A stretch of 64,000 nucleotides of DNA, taken from assembly GCF_009914755.1 (NCBI RefSeq), contig NC_060934.1; one strand, 5' to 3'. The translations under genes were made by a program, and so were the position numbers. The notes under the pieces were generated by a model. The model was not told where the DNA came from and searched no databases. It worked only from the letters and a program-made list of their open reading frames with translations. Below are positions 35,910 through 44,044 of this stretch, in pieces. This stretch comes from the human T2T-CHM13v2.0 reference genome, Homo sapiens. The stretch's first letter is position 1; the number at the start of each line of letters is the position of its first letter.

Positions 35910-37516
35910 ATTTCCCCAATTTACTGATACGATTGACAAATGTAATTGTATTTAAGGTATACAATATAATGTTTTCATATAGGTATACATTTTGAAATAA
36001 TTACCACAATCTACTTAATTATATGTCCATTACCTCAAACATTAACTGTCTGTGTGTTTATGCAGTGAGAACACTTGAGTTCTCTAGGAGCATATTTCAA
36101 ATATGCTTTGCATTAACTAGAGTTACTATGTTGTAAATGAAGTATCCTGAACTTATTCATCCAATAGTGAAAAGTTTTTATGCTTTGACTCATATTTCCA
36201 CTTTCTCCCAACCCCCAGCCACTAGTAACCACCACTCTACTCTCTGTTACTATGAGTCTGGCTCTTTTATAGATTCCACATGTAAGTGAGATCATGCATC
36301 ATTTGTCTTCCTATGTCTGGCTTATCTCACTTAGCATAATGTTTTCCAAGTTAATTCATGTTGCGGTAAAAGGCAGGATTTCCTTTTTTTTTTTTTTTTT
36401 TTTGTGATGGAGTCTCGCTCTGTTGCTCAGGCTGGAGAGTGCAGTGGCGCGATCTCGGCTCACTGCAAGCTCCGCCCCCCAGGTTCACGCCATTCTCCCA
36501 CCTCAGCCTCCCAAGTAGCTGGGACTACAGGCATCTGCCACCACGCCCAGCTTATTCTGTTTTTGTATTTTTAGTAGAGACGGGATTTCACCGTGTTAGC
36601 CAGGATGGTCTCCATCTCCTGACCTCGTGATCTGCCCACCTTGGCCCCCCAAAGTGCTGGGATTACAGGCGTGAGCCACTGCACCCAGACAAGATTTCCT
36701 TTTTCTAAGGTTGAATCATATTCTACTGTATATATAATACATTTTCTTTATCCATTGATTTCTCAGACACTTAGGTTGTTTCCGTATCTTGGCTATTGTG
36801 AATAATGTTGCAATGAACACAGAAGCACCAGCTATCTCAAGATAGTGATTTTATTTCCTTTGGATATGCACCCAGGAATAAAACTGCTGGATCTATATGG
36901 AGCATATTTAAACTTTTAGGAGCCACCACATTGTTTTCCATAGTGGCTGCATATTTACACTCCCACCACAAGTGTACAAGGGTTCCCTTTGCTCCACATC
37001 ACTTGTTATCTTTTGATATTTTGATAAAAAACATCCTAATAGTTGTAAGGTGATATTTCATTGTGGTTTTAACTTGCATTTCCCTGATATTAGTGATGTT
37101 GAACATCTTTTCATATACTATTGGCTTTTTATATGCCATCTTTGGAAAAATGCCTATTCGTGTTCTTTGCCCATTTTTAATCAGGTTTTTTGTTTAATTT
37201 TGCTATTTACTTGTATAAGTTTCTTATATATTGTGATGATTGTTTCTTTGCTATGCAGAAACTTTTTTGATTAATATATTCCCACATTTTGCTTTTGGTG
37301 TCTGTGCTTTTGGTGTCAAATTAAAATAAAATCATTTCTAAGACCAATATTGAGGAGATTTTCTTCTATGTTTTCTTCTAGGAGTTTCATGGTTTCAGGT
37401 CTTATGTTTAAGTTTTTACTCAATTTTTAATTGATTTTCATGTATGATATAAAATAAGGATACAATTTCATTCTTTTGCAGGTGAATGTCCAGTTTCTCC
37501 AACACCATTTACTGAA
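35910..37516 (-). mobile_element. 5'-truncated L1MA-type 3' fragment nested in the L1MC (contains an AluY)
   Basis: L1MA-like 3'UTR (tatttaaggtatacaa..., gattccacatgtaagtgagatcatgc) and ORF2 3' remnant ending at caccatttactgaa. Confidence 0.75.
36384..36690 (-). mobile_element. Alu (AluY-like) in L1MA
   Basis: Alu consensus; TSD a(g/a)gatttcctttt. Confidence 0.93.
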
Positions 37517-37523
37517 TTTCTTT
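37510..37523 (+). repeat. Target-site duplication of the L1PA2 insertion, left copy TACTGAATTTCTTT
   Basis: Exact match to 44031-44044; abuts the L1 tail. Confidence 0.9.
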
Positions 37524-37754
37524 TTTTTTTTAATTATTATTTTTTTTAAATTATACTTTAAGTTTTAGGGTACATGTGCACATTGTGCAGGTTAGTTACA
37601 TATGTATACATGTGCCATGCTGGTGCGCTGCACCCACTAACTCGTCATCTAGCATTAGGTATATCTCCCAATGCTATCCCTCCCCCCTCCCCCCTCCCCA
37701 CCACAGTCCCCAGAGTGTGATATTCCCCTTCCTGTGTCCATGTGATCTCATTGT

Positions 37755-42662: not shown

Positions 42663-43566
42663 CTTTGTGGTTTTATCTACTTTTGGTCTTTGATGATGGT
42701 GATGTACAGATGGGTTTTCGGTGTGGATGTCCTTTCTGTTTGTTAGTTTTCCTTCTAACAGACAGGACCCTCAGCTGCAGGTCTGTTAGAATACCCTGCC
42801 CTGTGAGGTGTCAGTGTGCCCCTGCTGGTGGGTGCCTCCCAGTTAGGCTGCTCGGGGGTCAGGGGTCAGGGACCCACTTGAGGAGGCAGTCTGCCCGTTC
42901 TCAGATCTCCAGCTGCGTGCTGGAAGAACCACTGCTGTCTTCAAAGCTGTCAGACAGAGACTTTTAAGTCTGCAGAGTTTACTGCTGTCTTTTGGTTTGT
43001 CTGTGCCCTGCCCCCAGAGGTGGAGTGTACAGAGGCAGGCAGGCCTCCTTGAGCTGTGGTGGGCTCCACCCAGTTCGAGCTTCCCGGCTGCTTTGTTTAC
43101 CTAAGCAAGCCTGGGCAATGGCGGGCGCCCCTCCCCCAGCCTCGCTGCCGCCTTGCAGTTTGATCTCAGACTGCTGTGCTAGCAATCAGCGAGACTCCGT
43201 GGGTGGAGGACCCTCCGAGCCAGGTGTGGGATATAGTCTCGTGGTGCGCCGTGTTTTAAGCCGGTCTGAAAAGCGCAATATTCGGGTGGGAGTGACCCGA
43301 TTTTCCAGGTGCGTCCGTCACCCCTTTCTTTGACTCGGAAAGGGAACTCCCTGACCCCTTGCACTTCCCAGGTGAGGCAATGCCTCGCCCTGCTTCGGCT
43401 CGCACACGGTGCGCGCACTCACTGGCCTGCGCCCACTGTCTGGCACTCCCTAGTGAGATGAACCCGGTACCTCAGATGGAAATGCAGAAATCACCCGTCT
43501 TCTGCGTTGCTCACGCTGGGAGCTGTAGACCGGAGCTGTTCCTATTCGGCCATCTTGGCTCCTCCC
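42663..43566 (-). promoter_or_regulatory. L1 5'UTR: internal sense Pol II promoter plus antisense promoter, CpG-rich
   Basis: Intact YY1 site CAAGATGGCCG (plus-strand cggccatcttg, 43547-43557). Many CpGs retained. Confidence 0.9.
43118..43333 (+). CDS. ORF0: LINE-1 antisense ORF0, 71 aa
   Basis: GCAATGG start at 43118 giving MAGAPPPASLPPCSLISDCCASNQRDS...RCVRHPFL-stop, the primate L1 ORF0 sequence. Internal splice donors CAG|GTGTGG (43223/4) and CAG|GTGCGT (43308/9) are present. Confidence 0.9.
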   Translation: MAGAPPPASLPPCSLISDCCASNQRDSVGGGPSEPGVGYSLVVRRVLSRSEKRNIRVGVTRFSRCVRHPFL

Positions 43567-44030
43567 TGATGCCTTTCCTTTCTAGGAGAGAGAAAGGCAT
43601 TCCCAAGACACCCAAGAGCCTCTATTTGGTAAGGTCTCCTTTACAAATGTGTATGTATCTCAAGCTCACAATATTCCTCAGAGCTCCAATTACCTATGTC
43701 TAACTCATTTTTGACACCTTCATTTGGATGCCTCATGGGAATAGATTTCAAATCTATCAAGTCCAAAAAGGAGTCATTTCCACCCTGCCCTCATCTCCCC
43801 TGCCACCCACCACACACACGCCCTACGGCCCTATTCTAGGCCTAGGAGTCTACCTATCAGTAAAACATCACTATCTTCTAGCCAATTGCAAAAAAACACA
43901 GAAACTTGGAGTCATTTTTGTTCCTGTCCCTCATCTCTCACATGCAATCCAACAACAGGTCCCAGTGTTCTACCATATCTCCACTGCCACTACCTTAATC
44001 CTAGCCACCTGCACCAGCTAGCTTGAAACC
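43567..44030 (-). other. 464-bp 5'-transduced segment (mostly an L2 relic) carried with the L1PA2
   Basis: Lies between the L1 5' end and the right copy of the TSD. The minus-strand read GGTAGTGGCAGTGGAGAT...GGATTGCATGTGAGAGATGAGGG...ATGACTCCAAGTTTCT is L2-like. Confidence 0.85.
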
Positions 44031-44044
44031 TACTGAATTTCTTT
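44031..44044 (+). repeat. Target-site duplication of the L1PA2 insertion, right copy TACTGAATTTCTTT
   Basis: Exact match to 37510-37523. Implied nick TTTCTTT/GT resembles an L1 endonuclease site, and the host old L1 resumes here. Confidence 0.9.

What the first reader, a model, noticed from the sequence alone, without database searches (positions are those of the whole stretch)
37510..44044. Full-length L1PA2 with a 464-bp 5' transduction
Seen: there is no TSD at the L1 5' end (43566). An exact 14-bp duplication TACTGAATTTCTTT flanks the tail (37510-37523) and recurs at 44031-44044, where the interrupted old L1 resumes. Removing the L1, the 464 bp at 43567-44030 and one TSD copy restores a clean empty site, ...caacaccatttactgaatttctttgtatatt.... 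The extra 464 bp is mostly a decayed L2, an old family sitting at the junction of L1MA and L1MC sequence, so it is unlikely to have arrived by its own activity. Established: 5' transductions arise when a donor L1 is transcribed from an upstream promoter, and they are much rarer than 3' transductions. Inference: a donor L1PA2 elsewhere was expressed in germline or early embryo from a non-L1 promoter at least 464 bp upstream, possibly in the L2 itself, and copied that flank here. The insert begins with G on the minus strand, which could be cap-derived.
Basis: partly seen in the sequence, partly recalled or inferred. Interest (0 to 1): 0.85.

Follow-up and report, generated by a model that had tools for sequence, protein, structure and literature searches.

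The report
L1 copy carrying chr3 upstream flank
A full-length human L1 retrotransposon in a SORCS1 intron was inserted together with about 460 bases copied from chromosome 3, a known but uncommon by-product of L1 copying called 5' transduction, so the case is well documented but ordinary in kind.

Summary
An exact 14-bp duplication (37510-37523, 44031-44044) encloses a minus-strand, 6,043-bp L1 with A-rich tail (37524-43566) plus 464 non-L1 bases (43567-44030). The 464 bp has exactly one other copy in this assembly, at chr3:23,826,329-23,826,773, in the L1 sense orientation, differing by 5 substitutions in 445 bp and one 18-bp indel. Homology stops exactly at the first L1 base and one base short of the duplication. 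The leftover base is a G that chr3 does not template, as expected from a reverse-transcribed cap. No L1 lies beside the chr3 copy, so the donor is absent from this genome. My best reading (0.7) is a 5' transduction from a donor L1 that was lost or never fixed, transcribed from a start site at chr3:23,826,329. The main rival (0.2) is a reverse-transcriptase template switch, or RNA joining, onto a separate chr3 RNA. The kind is known: 49 of 497 polymorphic L1 transductions were 5' in one survey. This locus was not found in the one catalogue of 5' L1 chimeras I could search. Both L1 reading frames are open. Interest is about 0.3.

The parts
37510..37523 (.). Target-site duplication, the copy next to the L1 tail
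   Evidence: Exact 14-mer, one of only two in the window; abuts the tail.
37524..37550 (-). A-rich tail of the L1 (interrupted poly(A) on the minus strand)
   Evidence: Read directly. The boundary with the duplication is ambiguous by up to 3 A.
37551..37754 (-). L1 3'UTR
   Evidence: Lies between the ORF2 stop and the tail.
37755..41582 (-). L1 ORF2, open, 1275 aa (endonuclease and reverse transcriptase)
   Evidence: Colinear 1-1275 with the solved human LINE-1 ORF2 protein, E=0.
41583..41645 (-). 63-bp spacer between the two ORFs
   Evidence: Coordinates.
41646..42662 (-). L1 ORF1, open, 338 aa
   Evidence: Matches solved LINE-1 ORF1p chains, E=2e-139.
42663..43566 (-). L1 5'UTR, complete to the family's first bases
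   Evidence: In one search, 21 of the 39 other listed copies align from query base 1; the best identity is 97%.
43567..44029 (-). 463 bases copied from chr3:23,826,329-23,826,773 (the transduced leader)
   Evidence: The only other genomic copy. 5 substitutions in 445 bp plus one 18-bp indel; ends are exact.
43663..43680 (-). 18 bases present here but absent from today's chr3 source
   Evidence: Single gap in the alignments. Flanked by short TGAG/GAGCT repeats.
44030..44030 (-). One G (minus strand) templated neither by chr3 nor by the target site; candidate cap-derived base
   Evidence: chr3 has T here. The base before the other duplication copy differs too.
44031..44044 (.). Target-site duplication, the copy at the 5' end of the insert

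Best explanation
One target-primed reverse transcription event inserted a single chimeric RNA. The RNA consisted of a cap, 463 nt of unique chr3 sequence, a complete L1PA2-like L1 and a poly(A) tail. The RNA arose because a full-length donor L1 once sat on the + strand of chr3 immediately after position 23,826,773. That donor was transcribed from a start site 445-463 bp upstream, at chr3:23,826,329, instead of from its own promoter. This is a 5' transduction. The donor allele is absent from this assembly; it was lost or never fixed. Shown: the single-event architecture, the unique source, its orientation, its exact ends and the untemplated G. Inferred: the former donor L1, the start site, and an age of roughly 1-8 million years (5 substitutions in 445 bp at 0.17% per million years per lineage).
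For: - One exact 14-bp duplication encloses the L1 plus the extra DNA. It abuts the tail on one side and the extra DNA on the other.
- The extra DNA has exactly one other copy, in the L1 sense orientation, colinear and unspliced.
- Homology ends exactly at the first L1 base. The L1 is complete to the family's own first bases. A transduction requires this; a template switch only permits it.
- The 5'-most base is a G that chr3 does not template. It follows a pyrimidine/purine step at chr3. [quoted passage not shown]
- A 12-base purine run lies 6-17 bases upstream of the presumed donor junction, where an L1 endonuclease site and duplication would be. Only 1.5% of 200,000 random positions have such a run. 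This test was chosen after seeing the sequence.
- Source-to-copy divergence is 1.12% (95% interval 0.36-2.62%), which fits a young primate L1.
- Source loci with no identified source element are reported among accepted transductions.
Against: - No L1 lies beside the chr3 copy. A BLAST of window 36501-45500 against chr3:23,822,000-23,841,800 found only the 463-bp match and short interspersed-repeat hits.
- The 743 bp downstream of the presumed donor site has no other copy, so there are no sibling 3' transductions.
- The genome holds no other copy of the leader, so there are no sibling 5' transductions.
- The best endonuclease hexamer at the presumed donor site matches 4 of 6, which 49% of random positions equal or beat.
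- The leader holds 11 ATG triplets, which would hinder ORF1 translation from such an RNA.
- The source has no CpG island, and the 700 bp upstream is unique sequence with no recognisable repeat promoter.
Confidence: 0.7

Rival explanations
1. No donor L1 ever sat on chr3. ORF2p copied a normal capped L1 RNA to its end and then jumped onto a separate capped chr3 RNA of about 460 nt, or the two RNAs were joined before reverse transcription. It copied that RNA to its cap, making a chimeric insertion.
For: There is no L1 at the chr3 source and there are no sibling transductions. Chimeric L1 insertions with other RNAs, by template switching or RtcB ligation, are documented (PMC13174262/PMC11838501, passages read; PMC6789731, start of abstract only). 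The cap-like G fits this reading as well.
Against: In the documented U6/L1 chimeras the L1 part is usually strongly 5'-truncated; here it is complete to base 1. The 5' part matches no known structured small RNA: 0 Rfam matches at E<=1 over 43300-44300. This reading needs an otherwise unknown RNA whose 3' end falls exactly at chr3:23,826,773. There are no extra or microhomologous bases at the L1/leader junction. Ligation needs a 5'-OH L1 fragment, which is unlikely for an L1 RNA complete to its first base (inference).
Confidence: 0.2
2. This is a 5' transduction, but without a start site at chr3:23,826,329. The donor L1 lay in sense orientation in an intron of a host gene (probably UBE2E1, a name recalled from memory) and was read through from the gene's own promoter about 15 kb upstream. 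The cDNA was simply 5'-truncated at that point, with one filler base added.
For: The source lies on the + strand about 15 kb downstream of CpG-island-like stretches at chr3:23,810,501-23,812,000 and 23,815,101-23,816,000. It lies about 66 kb upstream of + strand exons of an E2 E-class ubiquitin-conjugating enzyme. There is no promoter-like composition at the source.
Against: The single extra base is G, as a cap predicts (about 1 in 4 by chance for filler). It sits at a pyrimidine/purine step. An RNA of 20 kb or more is a poor L1 template (inference). The gene name and extent come from recall and not from a tool.
Confidence: 0.2
3. This was not a single retrotransposition. Either the 464 bp was captured as DNA filler at the 5' junction, or the 14-bp repeat is chance, or the join is an assembly artefact.
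For: None specific. The endonuclease site of the chr10 insertion itself is weak (AC/AAAG on the L1 strand, read).
Against: The 14-mer is exact and abuts both insert ends to the base. The orientation matches the L1, and the cap-like G points to an RNA origin. The 1.1% divergence from chr3 argues against a recent mis-join.
Confidence: 0.04

Closest known systems
L1 5' transduction (polymorphic human cases; 1000 Genomes long-read survey, doi 10.1101/2024.04.18.590093)
   Same: Unique upstream flank fused to the 5' end of an L1, inside one duplication pair with one poly(A) tail. The flank maps to a single source locus. Sources lacking an identified element are reported there too.
   Different: This insert is older (about 1% diverged from its source) and sits in the reference assembly. 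Its donor is absent. No siblings exist, so the source element cannot be confirmed.
Exon/L1 5' chimeras in hg38 (17 cases; Cell Genomics 2026, PMC13174262)
   Same: A near-full-length L1 with a unique RNA-derived 5' extension, in sense orientation, with target-primed reverse transcription hallmarks. Some listed cases also have a single untemplated G at the 5' end.
   Different: Those extensions are spliced first exons, and six end at splice donors. Here the extension is colinear with unspliced genomic DNA, and the next source bases are TG and not GT. This locus is not in that paper's tables: UBE2E1, SORCS1 and the duplication string in both orientations gave 0 hits in 4 files.
U6 or other small-RNA/L1 chimeras (template switch or RtcB ligation)
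   Same: One duplication pair encloses a foreign RNA copy fused 5' of L1 in sense orientation.
   Different: The 5' part here is no known small RNA, and the L1 part is full-length and not truncated.
Reporter-construct insertions that start at a plasmid promoter (SVA/L1 assays, PMC3287187)
   Same: Full-length de novo insertions carried 44-45 nt of non-element sequence from the external promoter's start site. Three had an untemplated G.
   Different: Those were made experimentally in cultured cells from a CMV promoter. This is a natural germline event with a 463-nt leader.

Membership tests
L1 5' transduction | Non-L1 DNA lies directly 5' of the L1 and inside the same target-site duplication pair, with a single poly(A) tail at the far end | tested here: met
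   an exact 14-bp repeat at 37510-37523 and 44031-44044; tail at 37524-37550; no duplication at 43566.
L1 5' transduction | The L1 part reaches its own 5' end, so the junction equals a genomic L1/flank junction | tested here: met
   for the 5' end. In one search, 21 of the 39 other listed copies align from base 1 of the 904-nt 5'UTR.
L1 5' transduction | The extra DNA maps to a unique locus elsewhere, colinear and in the L1 sense orientation | tested here: met
   one locus, chr3:23,826,329-23,826,773; the chr3 + strand equals the L1 sense strand.
L1 5' transduction | A full-length donor L1 lies, or once lay, immediately downstream of the source segment | tested here: inconclusive
   No L1 within -4.3 to +15 kb in this assembly. 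A purine run sits where a donor duplication would be. Other haplotypes and species are not available here.
L1 5' transduction | Transcription starts at a promoter upstream of the donor | not testable with these tools
   Only indirect evidence: an untemplated G at the 5' end. No CAGE or RNA data are on hand.
snRNA/L1 chimera (U6/L1 type) | The 5' part is a copy of a known small structured RNA | tested here: not met
   0 Rfam matches at E<=1 over 43300-44300.
Spliced exon/L1 chimera | The 5' part consists of spliced exons, or ends at a GT splice donor in the source gene | tested here: not met
   a single colinear block. The 18-bp gap is too short for an intron. The source continues with TG after the junction.
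L1PA2 subfamily | Match to the subfamily consensus and its diagnostic bases | not testable with these tools
   No repeat library is on hand. [10 protein letters not shown] signs: a 6.04-kb length, nearest 5'UTR copies at 97% with none closer, and about 24 amino-acid differences from a solved human ORF2p in the first ~957 residues shown (my count). The 3'UTR triplet reads GAG; its meaning as 'older than the human-specific Ta and pre-Ta groups' is recalled.

The most novel reading that the evidence does not exclude
The 463-nt chr3 leader is more than a passenger. It carries start-site-proximal regulatory sequence that still works at chr10. A RefSeq 'enhancer' feature, 43289-43875 in the hub's table, straddles the L1/leader junction. 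An L1 with both reading frames open would then have gained an alternative 5' leader or promoter, which would be a caught-in-the-act example of how primate L1 lineages replace their 5'UTRs and escape repressors aimed at the old one.
Probability: 0.06. Interest if true: 0.6.

Novelty: new member of a known kind. Interest (0 to 1): 0.3.

Why it matters
This is a clean, base-resolved example of an L1 moving upstream flanking DNA. The source is identified, both ends are exact and there is a probable cap footprint. It marks a former L1 donor site and a probable transcription start site on chr3 that are otherwise invisible. It preserves 18 bases that today's chr3 source lacks. It also adds an L1 with open ORF1 and ORF2 in a SORCS1 intron to the list of elements worth checking for activity. 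It does not change what is known about the mechanism.

Tried and rejected
- **Sibling 3' transductions.** I searched the genome with the 743 bp downstream of the presumed donor site and found only the self match.
- **A repeat-borne promoter at the source.** The 700 bp upstream of the source gave only itself plus one 38-bp chance-level hit.
- **Known RNA families in the leader.** None were found.
- **Continuity of the old L1 across the rebuilt empty site.** The result was weak and is not used as evidence.
- **Endonuclease hexamer at the presumed donor site.** It does not discriminate, because 49% of random positions score as well.
- **Naming the chr3 host gene with tools.** The UBC exon is identical in the solved E2 E1, E2 and E3 chains, so the name UBE2E1 rests on recall.
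- **Literature on this locus.** Searches for SORCS1 with L1PA2 (0 papers) and for UBE2E1 with L1 terms (2 papers held the terms, 1 listed after merging copies, unrelated) gave nothing.
- **Intact-L1 annotation preprint.** It gave no locus data.
- **Preprint supplements.** The supplements of the bioRxiv 1000 Genomes preprint, whose Table S16 lists source loci, are closed and might bear on a chr3 source.
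Full report
**Observation**

The window holds exactly two copies of TACTGAATTTCTTT, at 37510-37523 and 44031-44044. None of 100 dinucleotide-preserving shuffles gave two matches, even allowing one mismatch. The first copy is followed at once by a T-rich run, which is an A-rich tail on the minus strand, and then by the 3' end of an L1 read on the minus strand. 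The L1 ends on the minus strand with GGGAGGAGCCAAGATGGCC at 43566, and no repeat of the target lies there. Between 43567 and 44030 lie 464 non-L1 bases, directly followed by the second copy of the 14-mer.

**The L1 itself**

The element spans 6,043 bp including the tail. Its parts are as follows.

| Part | Coordinates | Evidence |
|---|---|---|
| ORF1, open, 338 aa | 41646-42662 | |
| Spacer, 63 bp | 41583-41645 | |
| ORF2, open, 1275 aa | 37755-41582 | |

- ORF2 aligns end to end (1-1275 against 1-1275) with the solved human LINE-1 ORF2 protein. I count about 24 amino-acid differences in the first ~957 residues shown, and the FADD reverse-transcriptase motif is kept.
- ORF1 matches solved LINE-1 ORF1p chains.
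- The 904-nt 5'UTR finds 39 other listed copies, all at 97% and none closer. Of those 39, 21 align from base 1.
- The element is therefore complete, is not one of the nearly identical human-specific copies, and has no close parent or sibling in this genome.
- The label L1PA2 is [14 protein letters not shown] this, and with the GAG triplet in the 3'UTR, whose meaning I recall from memory. It could not be tested because no repeat library is available.

**The decisive test: is there a second copy?**

A search of the whole assembly with 43567-44030 gave two places: the window itself and chr3:23,826,329-23,826,773 on the opposite strand. The chr3 + strand therefore equals the L1 sense strand. The alignment is a single colinear block with 5 substitutions in 445 shared bases (1.12%, Poisson 95% interval 0.36-2.62%) and one 18-bp gap. 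Window 43663-43680 has no counterpart on chr3.

- **L1 side.** Homology ends exactly at the first L1 base. The window reads ...GGCATCA then GGGAGGAGCC, while chr3 reads ...GGCATCA then TGAGAAG.
- **Other side.** Homology ends at 44029. The remaining base 44030, a G in the sense strand, faces a T on chr3. It also differs from the base that precedes the other duplication copy.
- **Flanks of the source.** The 700 bp upstream of the chr3 segment and the 743 bp downstream are each unique in the genome.
- **No donor.** A BLAST of window 36501-45500, which includes the whole L1, against chr3:23,822,000-23,841,800 gave the 463-bp match and only short interspersed-repeat hits of 73-220 bp. No L1 lies next to the source.

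**What this shows**

The L1 and the chr3-derived segment share one duplication pair and one tail, so they entered as one piece by target-primed reverse transcription. The direction of copying is chr3 to chr10, because only the chr10 copy has a tail and a duplication. The segment is unspliced genomic sequence in the same sense as the L1. This is the architecture of an L1 5' transduction, with the source locus in the state of an empty donor site.

**The 5' end**

[quoted passage not shown] In that paper full-length reporter insertions also carried 44-45 nt from the external promoter's start site. Here the G sits before a templated G that follows a T on chr3, which is a pyrimidine/purine step. 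I infer that the RNA began at chr3:23,826,329 and was copied to its cap.

The alternative is that a longer read-through RNA was 5'-truncated with one filler base. The source region has no CpG island (45% G+C, 3 CpG) and no recognisable repeat upstream, so any promoter there is unremarkable in sequence. A segment that starts at the transcription start would not carry the upstream promoter. This fits the absence of any further copies.

**Host gene of the source**

Exons of an E2 E-class ubiquitin-conjugating enzyme lie on the chr3 + strand at 23,892,342-23,894,044. CpG-island-like stretches lie at 23,810,501-23,812,000 and 23,815,101-23,816,000. From memory this gene is UBE2E1, so the source would be intronic and in sense orientation. 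The solved chains of E2 E1, E2 and E3 are identical over the exon tested, so the name is not established by a tool.

**The missing donor**

Absence of a donor is expected for old events, and source loci without an identified element are also reported for polymorphic ones (passages read). I looked for independent traces.

- There are no sibling 5' transductions and no sibling 3' transductions.
- At the presumed donor junction a 12-base purine run (AGAAAGGAAAGG) lies 6-17 bases upstream. A donor's endonuclease site and a 16-17-bp duplication would be expected there.
- Such a run occurs at 1.5% of 200,000 random positions. The best hexamer match to the endonuclease consensus is only 4 of 6, which 49% of random positions equal or beat. 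This is mild support and the test was chosen after seeing the sequence.

**Rivals**

- **Template switch or RNA ligation.** These make L1 chimeras with other RNAs (PMC13174262/PMC11838501, passages read; PMC6789731, start of abstract only). In the documented U6/L1 chimeras the L1 part is usually strongly truncated. Here it is complete to base 1, as a transduction requires. The leader matches no Rfam family.
- **Spliced exon/L1 chimeras.** The same paper lists 17 cases in hg38, and six end at splice donors. Here the source continues with TG and not GT, and the leader is colinear with the genome. The present locus is not in that paper's four supplementary tables: UBE2E1, SORCS1 and the duplication string in both orientations gave 0 hits. 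I read part 1 of 3 of the relevant table.
- **Point against a self-encoded event.** The leader holds 11 ATG triplets.

**The target site**

The left flank is an old L1 read in antisense, 77-84% identical to the 39 other copies listed. The rebuilt empty site continues to resemble those copies only faintly beyond the junction: 53% and then 45% identity over the first 39 bases, against 72-84% before it. From about 44195 the right flank repeats the same old-L1 region at an offset of about 363 bp. That offset appeared in 13 of 19 loci; the other 6 had no right-flank hit. The insertion therefore landed near a junction of two old-L1 pieces, and old-L1 continuity is not good evidence for the empty site. 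The endonuclease site of this insertion itself, AC/AAAG on the L1 strand, is weak.

**Age**

At 0.17% per million years per lineage, a rate quoted in PMC11838501, 5 substitutions in 445 bases give 3.3 million years (interval 1.1-7.7). At 0.1% the figure is 5.6 million years. Either value fits a late L1PA2-type insertion. Whether it is human-specific cannot be told here.

**Novelty and interest**

5' transduction by L1 is established. In 1,019 long-read genomes 49 of 497 L1 transductions were 5', out of 4,429 polymorphic L1 insertions. This is a new, well-resolved member of a known kind. It adds an identified source, a probable cap footprint, an absent donor, an 18-bp stretch missing from today's source and open reading frames. 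I rate interest at 0.3.

**Limits**

No other primate or human assemblies, RNA 5'-end data or repeat library were available. The supplements of the bioRxiv 1000 Genomes preprint are closed and could list a chr3 source.

Noticed in passing
window 37755-42662 (minus strand): Both L1 reading frames are open at full length (ORF1 338 aa, ORF2 1275 aa, 63-bp spacer), even though the nearest 5'UTR copies are only 97% identical. Differences from the solved human ORF2p include a G-to-E change in ...[10 protein letters not shown]... and two changes in ...PDFKLYYKA... . Whether the element is active is unknown.
   Followed up: partly
window 43663-43680; chr3:23,826,677/8: 18 bases are present in the chr10 copy and absent from the chr3 source. 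They are flanked by short GAGCT/TGAG repeats, so they look like a later slippage deletion at the source. The copy would then preserve the older state.
   Followed up: partly
window 37330-37523 and 44195-44336: The two flanks of the insertion hold the same region of an old L1 (antisense on the + strand) at an offset of about 363 bp. Two overlapping old-L1 pieces therefore meet near the target site.
   Followed up: partly
window 43289-43875: The hub's table lists a RefSeq 'enhancer' feature that straddles the L1 5' end and 309 bases of the chr3-derived leader. The experimental basis is not visible here.
   Followed up: no
window 43380-43703 (+ strand): A 107-aa ATG-started ORF runs antisense from the L1 5'UTR across the junction into the leader. 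It is probably a chance ORF.
   Followed up: no
window 43570-43599: An 8-bp inverted repeat (TGCCTTTC ... GAAAGGCA) lies next to the L1 junction. It is present at chr3 too, so it belongs to the source and not to the insertion event.
   Followed up: partly
chr3:23,810,501-23,812,000 and 23,815,101-23,816,000 (L026, L027): Two CpG-island-like stretches lie 10-16 kb upstream of the source segment on chr3. Exons of an E2 E-class enzyme lie about 66 kb downstream on the same strand.
   Followed up: partly
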